From: an uncultured Clostridia bacterium
GTDB taxonomy: Bacteria; Bacillota; Clostridia; TANB77; CAG-508
DNA: 64,000 bases
Direction of reading: 5' to 3'
Assembly: GCA_934168355.1 (NCBI GenBank)
Contig: CAKPNI010000004.1
Span: 730-64,729 of the forward strand
Translations under genes and position numbers: made by a program
Notes under the pieces: generated by a model
What the model was told of the DNA's origin: nothing
Seen by the model: only the letters and a program-made list of their open reading frames with translations
Databases searched by the model: none
Shown: piece after piece, positions 22,931-26,642 of the stretch
How the letters are laid out: the number at the start of each line of letters is the position of its first letter
Numbering within the stretch: position 1 is the stretch's first letter

Positions 22931-24043
22931 TTATATGTTTAAACTCTCTACAAAACAATCCATTCTTTTCAACACCGTATAACTGTTTCCTCTTTTCATA
23001 TGCCCTTTCCAACTACAATATGAATTAATAGCTTGTTCTTTAGTCATTTTTTTATTTTCTATCCACCTATTAAAAGTTTTCATCTTTCTTCTCATTCTAA
23101 CAGCCGAATTTTTATTTATTTTTCTTACTACTTTTCCTGTTTCTGTGCAAATGAACTTGGTTTTTAAAAACTTAAAACCATTTTGGAATTTTCTAATTCT
23201 CGTTTTTTTATTATTAAACTCTAATCCCATCTCTTCTGCTTTTCTTTTTATTTTTGATAGTAAATCTTTAGCTTCTGCCAATGTTGGTGCAAAAAAATAA
23301 AAATCATCAACATATCTGCCGTAAAATTTTACTCTTAATTTGTCTTTTATATAATGGTCTAGTGGACTTATCCCTATGTTCGTATATATTTGAGATGTAT
23401 GTGCTCCTAGTCCAAATCCAACATTTCCATAAATTTCCATGCACATATTTGCTATTTTTCTAATCTTTGGGTTAAAAATTCGCTTTTCATTTTCTTTGTA
23501 AACTACATTATGTGGTACACTATTGAAAAAATCATGAAAATCGCATGTGACTACATACCCATTGTTTCCATATTTTTTAAAGTATCTTTGCATATGACAG
23601 TTAACCCTATTTAAAGTATGGTCCATACCTTTCCCAACTCTATTTGCTGCATTGTCATATATAAATGAATTGTCATAAAGTGGTACTATAACATTATCAC
23701 ATAAAGCTCTTTGTAGTACTCTTTCTACTATTTTTTGTGATTGTATTTTTCTTTCTTTTCCTCTTTCGTTTATCCAAAATACATGTGGTTTTGAAAATTT
23801 GAATTTATCATTTTGAACATCTTTGTATAGTTTGTATGTGTTTGAAATCATCTTTCTTCTATAGTTTTGTACAGATGCTTTCCATGATACTCCTCTTACA
23901 CACTTTTTTCCGGCTTTATATAAATTTTCATAAGAGAATACTTCTTCCAAACTTCCACATTGCATACTTTTTAATTTTCTTTTTTCTTCTCTTTTTTTCT
24001 TTCTTCTTTGGTATCTTGCCTCATGTCTTTCAGCACTATTCAT
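22931..24043 (-). CDS. DGR reverse transcriptase
   Basis: RT motifs including YVDDFYFFA and the DGR-typical LGAHTSQ (GxxxSQ). Sits next to TR and avd. Confidence 0.9.
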   Translation of the reverse strand: MNSAERHEARYQRRKKKREEKRKLKSMQCGSLEEVFSYENLYKAGKKCVRGVSWKASVQNYRRKMISNTYKLYKDVQNDKFKFSKPHVFWINERGKERKIQSQKIVERVLQRALCDNVIVPLYDNSFIYDNAANRVGKGMDHTLNRVNCHMQRYFKKYGNNGYVVTCDFHDFFNSVPHNVVYKENEKRIFNPKIRKIANMCMEIYGNVGFGLGAHTSQIYTNIGISPLDHYIKDKLRVKFYGRYVDDFYFFAPTLAEAKDLLSKIKRKAEEMGLEFNNKKTRIRKFQNGFKFLKTKFICTETGKVVRKINKNSAVRMRRKMKTFNRWIENKKMTKEQAINSYCSWKGHMKRGNSYTVLKRMDCFVESLNI

Positions 24044-24240
24044 AATTATAAACCTCCGTACTTTTTAGCGAAGTAGAACTGGCTATGAAATTGGTATAAA
24101 CCAACCATGCAAGAAGCGTCCAGCCATCTACATCGAAGATTATTTTTGATCTGTTTCTCACAAATTCAGGAACAAGTTCCCCTTTCACAAAAGTGTTGCT
24201 TCACCTTTTACAGTTACTACGTCTTACTTATAATTTTGTG

Positions 24241-24356
24241 AAATCCCGGGGCTACGCCGTAAGAGTTGTTGCCATTGTTATTGTTGCAATTGCCGTTGTT
24301 GTTCAAATTGCAGAAATTGTTGCTATTGTTGTAATTAGGCGAACGAAGCCAGCAAG
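24241..24356 (-). repeat. DGR template repeat (TR)
   Basis: 116-bp ungapped match to 24927..25042 (offset 686). The coding-sense TR is rich in AAC/AAT codons. Confidence 0.9.
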
Positions 24357-24411
24357 AAACTCGGAAACTACGCAAGCTCTCTACACAGTATACGGAACTT
24401 GACCTATATTT

Positions 24412-24837
24412 TTATATTTCTTTATATCTTTCTAAGTCTTTTCTCATAATCCCTTTTAAAAGATTTTGTTCCTCTAATAAAAGCCTTCCCCATTCTTGAA
24501 AAGCAAATTTTTTCCATTCTTTACTTTCTTCTGGGTTCATTTCTAGTCTTTCTTTTAATTCTATCAATGGTAATTCCATATTTTCACATGCAGCAAGTGC
24601 TAACTGAAAGTGTTCTCTTCTATTTTGAACATCTTTGCTATTTCTTGGAACTATATTATTTGCAGTATTTGCTTCATAATATACTTTTCTTGCTAATGTG
24701 CATATATCTTTTGTTATGAAAAAAGTTAATCTTTTAGGAGATTTCAAGCAATATGTTAATGTATGCGCAGATAATTTCCTTGCGGTTTCCAAAAATGCTA
24801 CTTGACTTTCTCCTCTCTGACTTACATATACAGACAT
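24412..24837 (-). CDS. avd: DGR accessory variability determinant (Avd, four-helix-bundle type)
   Basis: 141 aa, basic and helical, positioned between the target gene and TR as in canonical DGRs. Confidence 0.8.
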   Translation of the reverse strand: MSVYVSQRGESQVAFLETARKLSAHTLTYCLKSPKRLTFFITKDICTLARKVYYEANTANNIVPRNSKDVQNRREHFQLALAACENMELPLIELKERLEMNPEESKEWKKFAFQEWGRLLLEEQNLLKGIMRKDLERYKEI

Positions 24838-24861
24838 ATCTTTTCCCCCTACAATAATTTC

Positions 24862-24879
24862 GCCCTTCTTTCGAAGGGC
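24862..24879 (-). promoter_or_regulatory. GC-rich hairpin with GAAA loop downstream of VR (DGR target-recognition hairpin)
   Basis: gcccttc-tttc-gaagggc: 7-bp stem, loop GAAA on the coding strand, about 48 nt after the VR end. Confidence 0.65.
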
Positions 24880-24917
24880 TGATAGTATTTTTATTTTTAT
24901 TTTATGTTAACTTGATG

Positions 24918-26642
24918 CTAGATTGCAAAGCCCGGGGCTACGCCGCAAGAGGTGTAGCCACCGTTACCGCCGCAACCGCCGCTGCCGTTCAAATAGCAGA
25001 AATAGTTGCTACTGCCGGAACCAGGCGAACGAAGCCAGCAAGTTCTTGTTGAGTTACTAGTATTATACTTACTTATTTTTGCGTTTGATGAATTATATGT
25101 TGCATTAATATCTTTATAAAATTTGTATTGTTCTCCCTCACTTGTTGCCGCATATCCATAGGCATTTTCCTGATATCCATTATTCCAGATTTCTGAACAA
25201 GCTAATAACCATAATTTGTCATTACATGTTTCTACCGTTGATTTTGATGCATTATATGAACTATCTTTTTGGTCTATATAGCTCTTCGTAACACTCTTTA
25301 TTATTCCGCTCTTTCCCATTGCTGTTTCTATATCATATAAATTTATTTTTCCACTTTCTGCTGTTGCTGTTCCATTGTTTAACACTGTTTCTAATTCTCT
25401 ATTTGCCCATCCTCCAGCATTATAGTAATCTGAAGTACTTCCTTTTTTATATAAGGTTGAATCAAATAACGATGTTACAAATTCAAAGCTTATTCCTGCT
25501 TTTGTTATTGTTGAGTCACTATATGCTGTAGCTCCACTTTCTAATGTATCATGATTAAATCCTAATACTCTTACTCTATAATTTTGTCCATTTATAGTAA
25601 GTACTTTTTCATCTCCAGCTTTTGCTGTATAATTCTTTCCATTTACTGTTTTTGTCACACTCAATGTTTCTTTTGTTATTGTACTATCTTTTGCTATTTC
25701 TTTTGCAAAATCTGCTATTTCTGTCCATGTATATTCCGAGAATTTTGGAGCTGTTACTGTTATACTATATGTTGCTGTCTTTCCAGAGTTTTTAGCTTTT
25801 GCTGTTATTACTGCTGTTCCTTCACTTACTCCTGTTACTGTTGCCTTACTTTCATCTTTTTTTGCTACTGTTGCTTTTGAATTATCATTTACGCTCCATT
25901 CTATTTCTTCATTTCCTCCACCTGCTTGGGCTACTGTTAATTCTATTTTTGCTCCTGATGCTACTGTTGTTTCTCCTGTTATATTTAAACTACTTGCTAA
26001 TGTTATTGTTTTTACTGTCACTTCACATTTTGCTTCTTTTCCTTTACATGTTGCTTTTATTGTTGCTGTTCCATTTCCCACCGCTTTTACTTTTCCTGTC
26101 GCTCCATTTCCTTCTACTGTTACTACATTTTCATTTGAGCTTGTCCATGTTATTGTACCTGTTATATTTGTTAATGTTGCTGTTAATGTGAACTCTTCTT
26201 TTTCTGTTCCTACTATTGATAGCGTTTTGGTTGTTTCACTTAATCCTATTCCATCTAATCTTGTTACTGTTCCATCTGTTGCTACTGAATATAGTGTTCC
26301 TTTGTATGTTATTGTTTTCGCTCCACTATCTAGGCTTACATTGTTTGCTCCTAATATTTCTTTTAGTTTGTCTTCATTTTCAAATATATAATCTGAAAAT
26401 GTTCCTACTCCTCCATTTAAATGGTATTCCATCGCCATTTGGCTTATTGCCATCTCTAGCTCTTCTTTGTTTTGCGCATCTGATGTTTTACTTTGCGCCT
26501 CGCTTGCCCTACTTAGTATTCCATTTTGTCCCGTTAGCATTGCTATACTTATTCCTGCTAATATTAATAGTACTATTATTGTTACTACTAACGCTATTAA
26601 TGTTATACCTTTGTTTCTTTTGAATTTTGGTTTAAAATCCAT
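24918..26642 (-). CDS. DGR target protein: prepilin-like N-terminus, Ig-like (Big_2-type) repeats, C-terminal C-type-lectin-like variable domain
   Basis: N-terminus ..KGITLIALVVTIIVLLILAGISIAMLTGQNGILSRA. Repeats of the form VTVEGNGATGKVKAVGNGTATIKATC. C-terminus CWLRSPGSGSSNYFCYLNGSGGCGGNGGYTSCGVAPGFAI* is encoded by VR. Confidence 0.85.
   Translation of the reverse strand: MDFKPKFKRNKGITLIALVVTIIVLLILAGISIAMLTGQNGILSRASEAQSKTSDAQNKEELEMAISQMAMEYHLNGGVGTFSDYIFENEDKLKEILGANNVSLDSGAKTITYKGTLYSVATDGTVTRLDGIGLSETTKTLSIVGTEKEEFTLTATLTNITGTITWTSSNENVVTVEGNGATGKVKAVGNGTATIKATCKGKEAKCEVTVKTITLASSLNITGETTVASGAKIELTVAQAGGGNEEIEWSVNDNSKATVAKKDESKATVTGVSEGTAVITAKAKNSGKTATYSITVTAPKFSEYTWTEIADFAKEIAKDSTITKETLSVTKTVNGKNYTAKAGDEKVLTINGQNYRVRVLGFNHDTLESGATAYSDSTITKAGISFEFVTSLFDSTLYKKGSTSDYYNAGGWANRELETVLNNGTATAESGKINLYDIETAMGKSGIIKSVTKSYIDQKDSSYNASKSTVETCNDKLWLLACSEIWNNGYQENAYGYAATSEGEQYKFYKDINATYNSSNAKISKYNTSNSTRTCWLRSPGSGSSNYFCYLNGSGGCGGNGGYTSCGVAPGFAI
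24927..25042 (-). repeat. DGR variable repeat (VR)
   Basis: 23 differences from TR, every one at a plus-strand T (coding-strand A) of TR. The 3' ends are GTAGCCCCGGGCTTTGCAATC in VR and GTAGCCCCGGGATTTCAC in TR (IMH / IMH*-like). Confidence 0.9.

What the first reader, a model, noticed from the sequence alone, without database searches (positions are those of the whole stretch)
22931..26642. Complete diversity-generating retroelement with 23 of 23 adenine-specific TR-to-VR differences
Order on the minus strand is target, hairpin, avd, TR, about 200-nt spacer, RT. TR 24241..24356 and VR 24927..25042 align without gaps. All 23 mismatches are at TR adenines in coding sense. They convert AAC/AAT codons of TR (..NYNNSNNFCNLNNNGNCNNNNGNNSY..) into GSGSSNYFCYLNGSGGCGGNGGYTSC in the target. 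A GC-rich IMH-like end and a GAAA-loop hairpin are present. The element appears active or recently active.
Basis: partly seen in the sequence, partly recalled or inferred. Interest (0 to 1): 0.7.

Follow-up and report, generated by a model that had tools for sequence, protein, structure and literature searches.

The report
Active diversity-generating retroelement in gut Clostridia
This is a complete and evidently still active diversity-generating retroelement in the chromosome of a human-gut Clostridia bacterium. It rewrites the tip of a surface protein with a pilin-like anchor; it is a clean new example of a well-known kind of system, not a new kind.

Summary
TR 24241-24356 and VR 24927-25042 (minus strand) align over 116 nt without gaps. 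All 23 mismatches fall on TR adenines (P about 5e-15). The minus-strand order is target, GAAA-loop hairpin, small accessory gene, TR, 197-nt spacer, RT.

New evidence:
- The RT's best solved relative is the Bordetella phage BPP-1 DGR RT, and it carries the LGxxxSQ and YVDD motifs.
- The spacer is a full-length match to Rfam RT-2 RNA (118 bits).
- The hairpin keeps a GRNA loop, with compensatory stem changes in relatives.
- The accessory protein has no direct Pfam hit. It models as a basic four-helix bundle closest to the 23S-rRNA-IVP/Avd fold, and remote relatives hit the Avd families.
- Strains with the identical Avd protein carry 10 different VR alleles. Of 202 substitutions, 200 are at TR adenines. 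Two contigs are 99.9-100% identical to the window outside VR yet differ at 14 VR positions.

The element is therefore active in nature. It is chromosomal, not in a prophage.

The target has a type-IV-pilin-like N-terminus (E5 replaced by A), two Big_2 domains and a DUF6273 domain.

One correction: the 23rd mismatch (24244/24930) is a fixed A/C difference in all relatives, so it marks the IMH boundary.

Verdict: new member of a known kind; modest interest.

The parts
24918..26642 (-). Target gene (574 aa): pilin-like N-terminal helix, small beta domain, two Big_2 Ig-like domains and a C-terminal DUF6273 domain that carries VR
   Evidence: ORF. Pfam: Big_2 1.3e-12, DUF6273 1.7e-09, N_methyl 0.0043, which is below its cutoff. 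AF2 model: helices 6-75, beta domains 138-297.
26418..26642 (-). N-terminal type-IV-pilin-like module (aa 1-75): KFKRNKG|ITLIALVVTIIVLLILAG..., with alanine where pilins have Glu5
   Evidence: The family profile hits geopilin 9egp_A at E 1.1e-4, and MshA and PilE1 weakly. The register is KG|ITLIA against KG|FTLIE. The motif is invariant in 36 homologues. The same module is found on a second protein at 5893-7149.
25752..26231 (-). Two Ig-like (Big_2) domains, aa about 138-297
   Evidence: Pfam Big_2, two stretches. AF2 pLDDT about 90. Foldseek Ig and S-layer hits.
24921..25307 (-). DUF6273 match (aa 446-574). The whole C-terminal domain probably starts near aa 300.
   Evidence: Pfam PF19789. 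DUF6273 is described as C-type-lectin-like and DGR-targeted in PMC10743442.
24927..25042 (-). Variable repeat (VR), aa 534-572 of the target
   Evidence: Ten alleles found in the population.
24931..24945 (-). GC-rich invariant 3' end of VR (IMH-like), CGGCGTAGCCCCGGG. It is followed by VR-specific CTTTGCAATC, where the TR has ATTTCACAAA.
   Evidence: 13 of 15 bases are G/C in a genome of 28% GC.
24862..24879 (-). Hairpin GCCCTTC-GAAA-GAAGGGC, 47 nt after the VR end and 24 nt before the avd start codon
   Evidence: DNA fold -9.9 kcal/mol, z -2.9. Compensatory stem changes with a conserved GAAA or GGAA loop in L001, L002, L004, L005 and L008. Matches the published consensus of a 7-10 bp GC-rich stem and 4-nt GRNA loop.
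24412..24837 (-). Accessory gene (141 aa, pI 9.0): a divergent Avd-like four-helix bundle
   Evidence: No Pfam, NCBIfam or PDB sequence hit. PHROG 'Avd protein of DGR' at E 0.027. AF2 four helices, pLDDT 81. Foldseek top hits 2RLD and 2GSC, TM 0.8. Among 70 remote relatives, 4 hit PF05635 and 2 hit PF22296 bAvd.
24241..24356 (-). Template repeat (TR), 37 adenines, 16 AAY codons in the target frame
   Evidence: Identical or one base different across strains while the VR varies.
24031..24231 (-). Structured spacer RNA between TR and RT: a full-length Rfam RF03077 (RT-2 RNA) match. Its 3' outer helix includes the RT Shine-Dalgarno sequence.
   Evidence: 117.8 bits against a gathering score of 40, model positions 1-222. 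The same position after the TR in all related loci.
22931..24043 (-). Reverse transcriptase (370 aa), DGR type
   Evidence: RVT_1. Best PDB hit 8ub7_A at E 5.8e-20, which is BPP-1 bRT. LGAHTSQ at 212 and YVDD at 244. PHROG 1423 at 6.8e-83.
22866..22901 (-). Terminator-like stem-loop with a T-run after the RT stop; the likely end of the cassette transcript
   Evidence: pattern match only.

Best explanation
This is a complete chromosomal diversity-generating retroelement (DGR) in a spore-forming human-gut Clostridia bacterium, and it has been operating recently in natural populations.

Inferred mechanism, by analogy with the BPP-1 prototype:
- The avd-TR-spacer-RT region is transcribed.
- The basic four-helix-bundle accessory protein and the RT bind the structured RT-2 spacer RNA just downstream of TR.
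- cDNA synthesis is primed from within that RNA and copies TR, with random misincorporation opposite adenines only.
- The cDNA replaces VR at the 3' end of the target gene. It is directed by the GC-rich IMH-like end and the downstream GRNA-loop hairpin.

The result is that 16 AAY codons and three other A-containing codons are rewritten, giving up to about 4e20 protein variants in 39 residues of a DUF6273 (C-type-lectin-like) domain.

The diversified protein carries a type-IV-pilin-like N-terminal helix and two Ig-like spacer domains. It is most likely a cell-surface ligand-binding protein (an adhesin).

Shown here: the anatomy, the family assignments of the RT and the RNA, adenine specificity, and VR-restricted variation among near-identical strains.
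Inferred: the biochemical steps, the role of the hairpin, the surface location and the ligand-binding function.
For: TR/VR pair:
- 116 nt, 23 of 23 mismatches at TR adenines, P 5e-15.

RT:
- The best solved relative is 8ub7_A (E 5.8e-20), shown to be BPP-1 bRT.
- It carries LGAHTSQ and YVDD.
- Phage DGR RTs are its nearest phage relatives.

Spacer:
- It matches Rfam RT-2 RNA at 117.8 bits over the full length.
- RT-2 follows a TR and precedes an RT in all eight related loci checked.
- Weinberg et al. placed the sister motif RT-10 between TR and brt in BPP-1 and predicted that other RT motifs serve other DGRs.
- The BPP-1 spacer is the Avd-binding, priming segment.

Hairpin:
- 7-bp GC-rich stem with a GAAA loop, compensatory stem changes in relatives.
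- It fits the published consensus of 7-10 bp stems and GRNA loops.

Accessory protein:
- Four-helix bundle, closest to 2RLD and 2GSC of the 23S-rRNA-IVP family.
- pI 9.0.
- Remote relatives hit PF05635 and PF22296 bAvd.

Activity:
- Loci encoding the identical Avd protein carry 10 distinct VR alleles. There are 200 A>N changes, 2 non-A substitutions and 2 indel events (a 1-nt insertion and a 3-nt deletion), and 35 of 36 TR adenines are hit.
- L006 and L007 are 99.94-100% identical to the window over 3-3.6 kb outside VR but differ at 14 VR positions.
- L008 and L009 have 0 differences in about 1.6 kb of target gene outside VR and 22 inside it.
- In L008 and L009, an A>G change in the TR is mirrored in the VR.
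- Per-allele substitution of 44-61% of adenines, rare indels and rare non-A changes match BPP-1 in vitro and in vivo figures.

Context:
- Neighbours are housekeeping genes: SigK, RuvB, sortase, PolA, DnaK/DnaJ/GrpE, RNase R.
- Synteny is conserved across strains.
Against: - No direct family hit identifies the accessory protein as Avd. Profile comparison with BPP-1 Avd is negative. The Foldseek E-values are only 0.04-0.25, although probability is 1.0 and TM is 0.8.
- The C-type-lectin fold of the VR domain was not demonstrated. AF2 pLDDT is 36-56 across residues 482-560, and Foldseek hits were dominated by the Ig domains.
- The hairpin lies 47 nt from VR here and up to about 95 nt in relatives. 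That is beyond the 4-34 bp reported for phage DGRs, while its distance to avd is constant. It might instead belong to the avd 5' UTR.
- No read-level data show heterogeneity within this sample.
- Some strains have lost the spacer and RT (L014, L021), so activity is not universal.
- The A>G excess (17 of 23 here; 115 G, 56 T and 29 C over ten alleles) is unexplained. It may reflect selection or shared ancestry.
Confidence: 0.93

Rival explanations
1. The cassette in this particular strain is an intact-looking but currently silent relic. The VR pattern records past activity, and the differences between strains arose before the lineages separated or were exchanged by recombination.
For: - No read-level heterogeneity could be examined.
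- Some strains of the same species carry a decayed cassette with the spacer RNA and most of the RT deleted (L014, L021).
- The exact window VR allele recurs in other assemblies (loci L010, L011 and L013, from two ENA samples), so it is not changing in every generation.
Against: - All ORFs, the TR, the RT-2 RNA and the hairpin are intact and identical to those of strains with other VR alleles.
- Contigs 99.94-100% identical over 3-3.6 kb differ at 14 VR positions, all of them TR-A sites. Divergence outside VR is essentially zero, so the VR change is very recent.
Confidence: 0.06
2. It is a prophage-borne DGR that diversifies a phage tail fibre or receptor-binding protein, as in BPP-1 and many gut phages.
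For: - The RT has phage relatives at 36-44% identity.
- PHROG hits for the Ig domains are to tail and structural proteins.
- Foldseek against viral models finds tail-collar fibre and DUF6273 phage proteins with a similar overall layout.
Against: - No phage genes lie within 20 kb on either side. The neighbours are SigK, RuvB, sortase, glycosyltransferases, dCMP deaminase, PolA and the DnaK operon.
- The locus sits at the same chromosomal position in all strains.
- The target starts with a pilin-type signal and hydrophobic helix, which is a cellular export feature.
Confidence: 0.02
3. On the target only: the N-terminal helix is an uncleaved membrane anchor, not a pilin signal. The protein would then be a membrane-tethered surface lectin rather than part of a type-IV-pilus-like filament.
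For: - Glu5, which is nearly universal in assembled pilins, is replaced by alanine in all 36 homologues.
- Pfam N_methyl scores below its cutoff, 17.0 against 21.2 bits.
- No pilus assembly genes or prepilin peptidase lie in the 64-kb window.
Against: - The profile hits pilin N-termini in register, including the Gly at -1.
- The module is shared with a second protein that has a different C-terminus, as expected of a portable export or assembly module.
- Tip minor pseudopilins of the GspK type also lack Glu5 (my own knowledge, not tested here).
Confidence: 0.5
4. The repeat pair is an ordinary duplicated segment, and its differences arose by normal mutation or chance.
For: None beyond the existence of a repeat.
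Against: - 23 of 23 differences fall on one base of one copy (P 5e-15).
- 200 of 202 substitutions do so across ten alleles.
- The pair is associated with an RT, the RT-2 RNA and the hairpin.
Confidence: 0.005

Closest known systems
Bordetella phage BPP-1 DGR (mtd-avd-TR-brt), the prototype
   Same: - The same order: target with a 3' VR, hairpin, small accessory gene, TR, structured spacer, RT (compare).
- Adenine-only mutagenesis with about half of the adenines changed.
- A GC-rich 3' end of VR and TR, followed by sequences that differ between VR and TR.
- A GAAA-loop hairpin.
- The RT aligns over its full length, at 23% identity and E 3e-26.
   Different: - Chromosomal, not phage.
- The target is a cellular protein with a pilin-like N-terminus, Big_2 and DUF6273 domains, instead of the Mtd tail-fibre protein.
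- The spacer RNA belongs to Rfam RT-2 rather than RT-10.
- The accessory protein has no detectable sequence similarity to bAvd.
- The hairpin is 47 nt rather than a few nt from VR.
Gut Firmicutes and phage DGRs with DUF6273 targets (for example the 'tentaclin' phages nd4 and nd12, and Faecalibacterium prophage DGRs)
   Same: - A DUF6273 domain carries the VR, combined with Ig-like domains.
- The RTs are related at 35-44% identity.
   Different: [quoted passage not shown]
- Here the target is a chromosomal gene with a pilin-type N-terminus and a C-terminal VR.
Bacteroides DGRs that diversify type V pilus tip adhesins (bioRxiv 10.1101/2024.11.15.621889)
   Same: A cellular gut-bacterial DGR that diversifies a presumed surface or pilus-associated adhesive protein (abstract listed).
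   Different: - Different phylum.
- Different pilus system: type V, against a type-IV-pilin-like signal here.
- Different target fold family.
- Pilus association is only inferred here.
Rfam RF03077, RT-2 RNA motif (Weinberg et al. 2017)
   Same: Full-length, high-scoring member at 117.8 bits.
   Different: The original description left the function of the RT motifs open, as retron or DGR. Here, and in all related loci checked, RT-2 sits directly after a TR and before a DGR RT. That is the position of the BPP-1 priming spacer.

Membership tests
Diversity-generating retroelement (DGR) | TR/VR repeat pair whose differences are confined to TR adenines | tested here: met
   23 of 23 in the window. 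200 of 202 substitutions over ten alleles.
Diversity-generating retroelement (DGR) | Reverse transcriptase of the DGR clade (closest to bRT; [ILV]GxxxSQ motif; YxDD catalytic motif) | tested here: met
   The best PDB match 8ub7_A is BPP-1 bRT. LGAHTSQ at 212 and YVDD at 244. No formal RT phylogeny was made.
Diversity-generating retroelement (DGR) | VR at the 3' end of a protein-coding target, in a variation-tolerant (C-type-lectin-like) domain | tested here: inconclusive
   VR covers aa 534-572 of 574, inside a Pfam DUF6273 match. DUF6273 is reported as CLec-like. The fold itself was not verified: pLDDT is 36-56 over VR and Foldseek was dominated by Ig domains.
Diversity-generating retroelement (DGR) | Accessory variability determinant (Avd: small basic four-helix-bundle protein, PF05635/PF22296) | tested here: inconclusive
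   Against: no direct Pfam, NCBIfam or PDB sequence hit, and hhalign against bAvd is negative. For: a four-helix model; Foldseek top hits 2RLD and 2GSC; PHROG Avd at E 0.027; 4 of 70 remote relatives hit PF05635 and 2 hit bAvd; pI 9.0; position between VR and TR.
Diversity-generating retroelement (DGR) | IMH-type GC-rich 3' end shared by VR and TR, with diverging sequence just beyond it (IMH versus IMH*) | tested here: met
   CGGCGTAGCCCCGGG in both copies, then CTTTGCAATC (VR) against ATTTCACAAA (TR). The A/C difference is fixed in all loci. Function is not testable here.
Diversity-generating retroelement (DGR) | Hairpin/cruciform downstream of VR with a 7-10 bp GC-rich stem and a 4-nt GRNA loop | tested here: met
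   7-bp stem and GAAA loop at 24862-24879. Compensatory changes in relatives. Consensus taken from PMC3240598. The 47-nt distance exceeds the 4-34 bp listed there.
Diversity-generating retroelement (DGR) | Ongoing mutagenic retrohoming (VR changes while TR and flanks stay constant) | tested here: met
   Comparison between strains only. Within-sample read heterogeneity and cDNA could not be tested with these tools.
Rfam RF03077 RT-2 RNA | Covariance-model score above the gathering threshold over the full model | tested here: met
   117.8 bits against 40, model positions 1-222.
Type IV pilin / pseudopilin (class III signal peptide) | N-terminal motif: basic leader, Gly at -1, hydrophobic +1, about 20-residue hydrophobic helix | tested here: met
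   KFKRNKG|ITLIALVVTIIVLLILAG aligned in register with geopilin and MshA. Pfam N_methyl reaches only 17.0 bits against a cutoff of 21.2.
Type IV pilin / pseudopilin (class III signal peptide) | Glutamate at position +5 of the mature protein | tested here: not met
   Alanine at +5, invariant in 36 homologues.
Type IV pilin / pseudopilin (class III signal peptide) | Prepilin peptidase and pilus assembly genes in the genome; cleavage and N-methylation | not testable with these tools
   None in the 64-kb window. The rest of the genome is not available.
Prophage-encoded DGR | Cassette embedded among phage structural or lysis genes | tested here: not met
   Housekeeping neighbours on both sides. Conserved chromosomal synteny.

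The most novel reading that the evidence does not exclude
The target, and a second protein in the window at 5893-7149, may be members of a family of modular, Glu5-less type-IV-pilin-like proteins of gut Clostridia. In these proteins a shared N-terminal pilin helix carries interchangeable lectin-like heads. The DGR would then be diversifying the tip adhesin of a Gram-positive type-IV-pilus-like filament. That would be a Firmicutes counterpart of the DGR-diversified type V pilus tips of Bacteroides.

A further point comes from relatives of this cassette, which carry up to seven tandem TR + RT-2 RNA modules (L005). 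These would let one RT switch the VR between different template scaffolds.
Probability: 0.3. Interest if true: 0.55.

Novelty: new member of a known kind. Interest (0 to 1): 0.3.

Why it matters
DGRs are the only known natural systems for targeted protein hypermutation in prokaryotes, and they are very abundant in the human gut. This locus adds no new principle, but it is an unusually clean natural example.
- Every cis and trans component can be identified, and the element sits in a stable chromosomal site.
- Public assemblies already show ten VR alleles on an otherwise near-identical background.
- It ties the orphan Rfam motif RT-2 to the TR-to-RT spacer position of a DGR.
- It shows that a sequence-divergent Avd-like protein can be recognised by fold.
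- It points to pilin-like surface proteins of Clostridia as diversification targets.

Together these make it a reasonable model for studying cellular, non-phage DGR function in gut Firmicutes.

Tried and rejected
- **Direct identification of the accessory gene as Avd.** Pfam, NCBIfam, a PDB sequence search, a profile search of PDB, and hhalign of two family profiles against BPP-1 Avd were all negative. Weak S15-like hits to the last helix (E 0.04-0.4) are not significant and were ignored. Only fold and remote relatives support Avd.
- **Verifying the CLec fold.** The full-length AF2 model had low confidence over VR. Foldseek against PDB and BFVD was dominated by the Ig domains. A profile search of PDB found only Ig and pilin matches.
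- **Further VR copies or remote targets.** None in the window.
- **VR alleles in JGI metagenomes.** A scan with an A-degenerate pattern returned 0 hits. The species is represented in ENA assemblies instead.
- **Prophage hypothesis.** Rejected on gene context.
- **Pilus machinery near the locus.** None found.
- **Literature searches that gave nothing useful.** RT-2 plus DGR, PDB code 8UB7 (resolved instead by tblastn), DGR plus prepilin, multiple TRs.
- **Promoter scan.** Uninformative in this AT-rich DNA: 28 hits against 18 expected.

Full report
**Observation**

The repeat finder returns one long direct repeat in the region, 24241-24356 and 24927-25042, 116 nt at 80% identity. On the minus strand the two copies align without gaps and differ at 23 positions. 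At every one the 24241-24356 copy has A and the other copy has G (17), C (3) or T (3). 23 of its 37 adenines and none of its 79 other bases differ. The chance that 23 differences all fall on the A positions is 5.4e-15. Similarity ends sharply on both sides, and the window holds no third copy.

In the frame of the 574-aa ORF 24918-26642, the A-rich copy reads CWLRSPNYNNSNNFCNLNNNGNCNNNNGNNSYGVAPGF, with 16 AAY codons of 38. The ORF's own copy reads CWLRSPGSGSSNYFCYLNGSGGCGGNGGYTSCGVAPGF, which is residues 535-572.

**Anatomy on the minus strand**

- Target gene 26642-24918, with VR at its 3' end.
- A 15-nt G/C-rich run, CGGCGTAGCCCCGGG, closes both repeats in a 28% GC genome.
- Stop codon.
- Hairpin GCCCTTC-GAAA-GAAGGGC at 24879-24862.
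- A 141-aa ORF, 24837-24412.
- TR, 24356-24241.
- A 197-nt spacer.
- A 370-aa RT gene, 24043-22931.
- A terminator-like stem-loop with a T-run, 22901-22866.

**Reverse transcriptase**

- Pfam RVT_1.
- The best solved relative is 8ub7_A (E 5.8e-20, aligned end to end). tblastn of that chain against phage genomes shows it is the brt product of Bordetella phage BPP-1, the prototype DGR. Direct BLASTP gives 23% identity and E 3e-26.
- The protein carries LGAHTSQ at 212 and YVDD at 244. These correspond to IGSLTSQ and YMDD in bRT.
- Its nearest phage relatives are RTs of gut phages, at 36-44% identity.

**Spacer RNA**

The stretch 24231-24031 is a full-length match to Rfam RF03077, RT-2 RNA (117.8 bits, gathering score 40). 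It starts 9 nt after the end of TR homology and runs to the RT start codon. The RT's GGAGG ribosome-binding site lies in the 3' strand of the model's outer helix.

In eight related loci, RT-2 always follows a TR and precedes the RT. Weinberg et al. described RT-1 to RT-19 as motifs near RT genes. They placed RT-10 between TR and brt in BPP-1 and speculated that other RT motifs serve other DGRs. In BPP-1 the noncoding segment downstream of TR binds Avd and provides the priming site for cDNA synthesis. By position, RT-2 is the equivalent element of this DGR lineage. Its priming role here is inferred, not shown.

**Hairpin**

It folds at -9.9 kcal/mol as DNA (z -2.9). In relatives the stem changes by compensatory substitutions: GCCCTTC/GAAGGGC, GTCCCTCC/GGAGGGAC and GCCACTCC/GGAGTGGC. 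The loop stays GAAA, or GGAA in L008.

This fits the published consensus for DGR hairpins: 7-10 bp GC-rich stems, 4-nt GRNA loops, structure required and loop sequence required. A caveat is the spacing. The distance to VR is 47 nt here and about 95 nt in more distant relatives, against 4-34 bp in the published phage set. The distance to the accessory gene's start is nearly constant. A role in the avd 5' UTR therefore cannot be excluded.

**Accessory gene**

- The 141-aa protein has no Pfam, NCBIfam or PDB sequence match. PHROGs gives only a weak hit to 'Avd protein of DGR' (E 0.027).
- An AlphaFold model from 20 homologues is a four-helix bundle (pLDDT 81, pTM 0.74).
- Its best structural matches are 2RLD and 2GSC (TM 0.8 on the target, probability 1.0, E 0.04-0.25). 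2RLD is titled a member of the 'S23 ribosomal protein family'. Assigning 2RLD and 2GSC to the 23S-rRNA-intervening-sequence family, and Avd to that same family, rests on my own knowledge.
- A profile search of 1.84 billion representatives finds 897 relatives. Of 70 aligned, 4 hit PF05635 (23S_rRNA_IVP) and 2 hit PF22296 (bAvd-like).
- Profile comparison with BPP-1 Avd itself is negative.
- The protein is basic, with pI 9.0.

I call it a divergent Avd-like protein with about 80% confidence.

**Target protein**

- Pfam finds two Big_2 domains and a C-terminal DUF6273 match over aa 446-574. N_methyl is just below its cutoff.
- DUF6273 domains of phage DGR targets have been modelled as C-type-lectin-like, with VR on the surface.
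- My full-length model is confident for the N-terminal helices and Ig domains but poor over residues 482-560. Foldseek hits are Ig-dominated. The CLec fold therefore rests on the Pfam assignment and the literature.
- A profile of 36 homologues matches the N-termini of type IV pilins: geopilin 9egp_A at E 1.1e-4, and MshA and PilE1 weakly. The match is in register, KFKRNKG|ITLIALVV against KLRNKKG|FTLIELLI.
- The glutamate at +5 is replaced by alanine in all homologues.
- A second ORF in the window, 5893-7149, shares the first 67 residues (51% identity, E 5e-18) but has an unrelated C-terminus. The N-terminus therefore behaves as a portable module.
- No pilus genes are in the window.

**Context**

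The cassette lies between sigK and a split AAA-ATPase_like/PDDEXK_9 gene. Also nearby are sortase, glycosyltransferases, ruvB, polA, the hrcA-grpE-dnaK-dnaJ operon and RNase R. The same synteny is seen in every strain recovered. This is a chromosomal element of a spore-forming Clostridia bacterium from human-gut metagenomes, not a prophage.

**Activity in nature**

The exact target protein occurs on 4 contigs, but the exact accessory protein occurs on 40. Loci that encode the identical accessory protein, plus close relatives, give ten distinct VR alleles against an essentially invariant TR.

Summed over alleles:
- 200 substitutions at TR adenines (115 to G, 56 to T, 29 to C).
- 2 substitutions at other bases.
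- One 1-nt insertion and one 3-nt deletion.
- 35 of 36 TR adenines changed in at least one allele.

L006 and L007 are 99.94% and 100% identical to the window over 3.6 and 3.0 kb outside VR, yet differ at 14 VR positions. L008 and L009 have no difference in about 1.6 kb of target gene outside VR and 22 inside it. In the L008/L009 lineage a TR A>G change is mirrored in VR, as expected for TR-to-VR information flow.

These figures, 44-61% of adenines changed per allele with rare non-A changes and rare indels, match BPP-1.

The mismatch at TR 24244 / VR 24930 is A in every TR and C in every VR of all loci, including those with only 70% RT identity. It is also synonymous. It marks the TR/VR-specific sequence beyond the GC-rich run (IMH against IMH*), not mutagenesis.

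**Mechanism**

I commit to the standard DGR pathway. An avd-TR-RT-2-RT transcript is made. An RT/Avd-like complex assembles on the RT-2 RNA, and RNA-primed, adenine-mutagenic cDNA synthesis proceeds across TR. The cDNA then replaces VR, guided by the GC-rich end and the hairpin. The theoretical repertoire is 15^16 x 4^3, about 4e20.

Shown: the parts, adenine specificity, the direction of information flow, and recent VR turnover.
Inferred: priming, protein-RNA contacts, the hairpin's role, and surface display and ligand binding by the target.

**Novelty**

Cellular DGRs in gut Firmicutes and DUF6273 targets are known. In the open literature I could search, a pilin-type domain on DGR targets is mentioned only in passing. 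This is a new member of a known kind.

Points of modest interest:
- The explicit RT-2/DGR link.
- The divergent Avd-like protein.
- The Glu5-less pilin-like module.
- The ready-made population series of VR alleles.

Noticed in passing
L005 2977-6010 (JAAWKZ010000005.1, Clostridia MAG; RT 70% identical to the window's): Seven tandem TR + RT-2 RNA modules (about 450-nt period) lie between avd and the RT. All have TR-type ends. Only the first matches the current VR perfectly (12 A>N, 0 other), and the other six encode different non-A scaffolds. L003 also has two RT-2 copies. This may be a multi-template DGR. I found no description of such arrays in the papers searched.
   Followed up: partly
L014 2594-3119 and L021 1021-1546 (same species, identical Avd protein): Decayed cassette. 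The RT-2 RNA is truncated after about 40 nt and fused to the last third of the RT gene, a deletion of about 1 kb. The TR is a different, longer variant that does not match the VR, which still carries an A-mutagenised pattern of the window-type TR.
   Followed up: partly
L006/L007 VR (P0002) and L019 VR: One lineage, seen in two independent samples, has a 1-nt insertion inside VR that frameshifts the last 25 or so residues of the target. Another has a 3-nt deletion. Both are consistent with the rare indels reported for DGR cDNA.
   Followed up: partly
window 5893-7149 (-): A 418-aa ORF shares the 67-residue pilin-like N-terminal module of the DGR target (51% identity). Its C-terminal part is unrelated and has no Pfam hit, and no TR/VR is associated with it.
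   Followed up: partly
window 21121-22828 (-): The AAA-ATPase_like/PDDEXK_9 gene just downstream of the RT is split into 63-aa and 515-aa ORFs. The same split is seen in several strains, but L015 has an intact 565-aa gene. It is either a lineage-specific frameshift or a pseudogene.
   Followed up: no
window 8724-11550 (-): DNA polymerase I appears split into a 792-aa ORF (profile positions 3-230 of DNA_pol_A) and a 127-aa ORF (positions 255-381), separated by about 65 nt. This may be a frameshift, an assembly error or an interruption.
   Followed up: no
window 24041-24065 (-): The RT's Shine-Dalgarno sequence GGAGG forms part of the 3' strand of the outer helix of the RT-2 RNA model. RNA folding could therefore compete with RT translation.
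   Followed up: no
window 24927-25042 and related VRs: The substitution spectrum at TR adenines is skewed to G: 17 of 23 in the window, and 115 G, 56 T and 29 C over ten alleles. Whether this reflects RT bias, selection (Gly/Ser/Asp-rich loops) or shared ancestry was not resolved.
   Followed up: no
L022 6001-8616 and L024 6001-9190: Distant homologues of the target (36-38% identity; one is named pseudopilin PulG by JGI). One sits next to a transposase with no RT or RT-2 RNA. The other sits next to an Avd-like ORF, an RT-2 RNA and a short 207-aa ORF with no Pfam RT hit. Gain and decay of the cassette therefore seem common in this protein family.
   Followed up: partly
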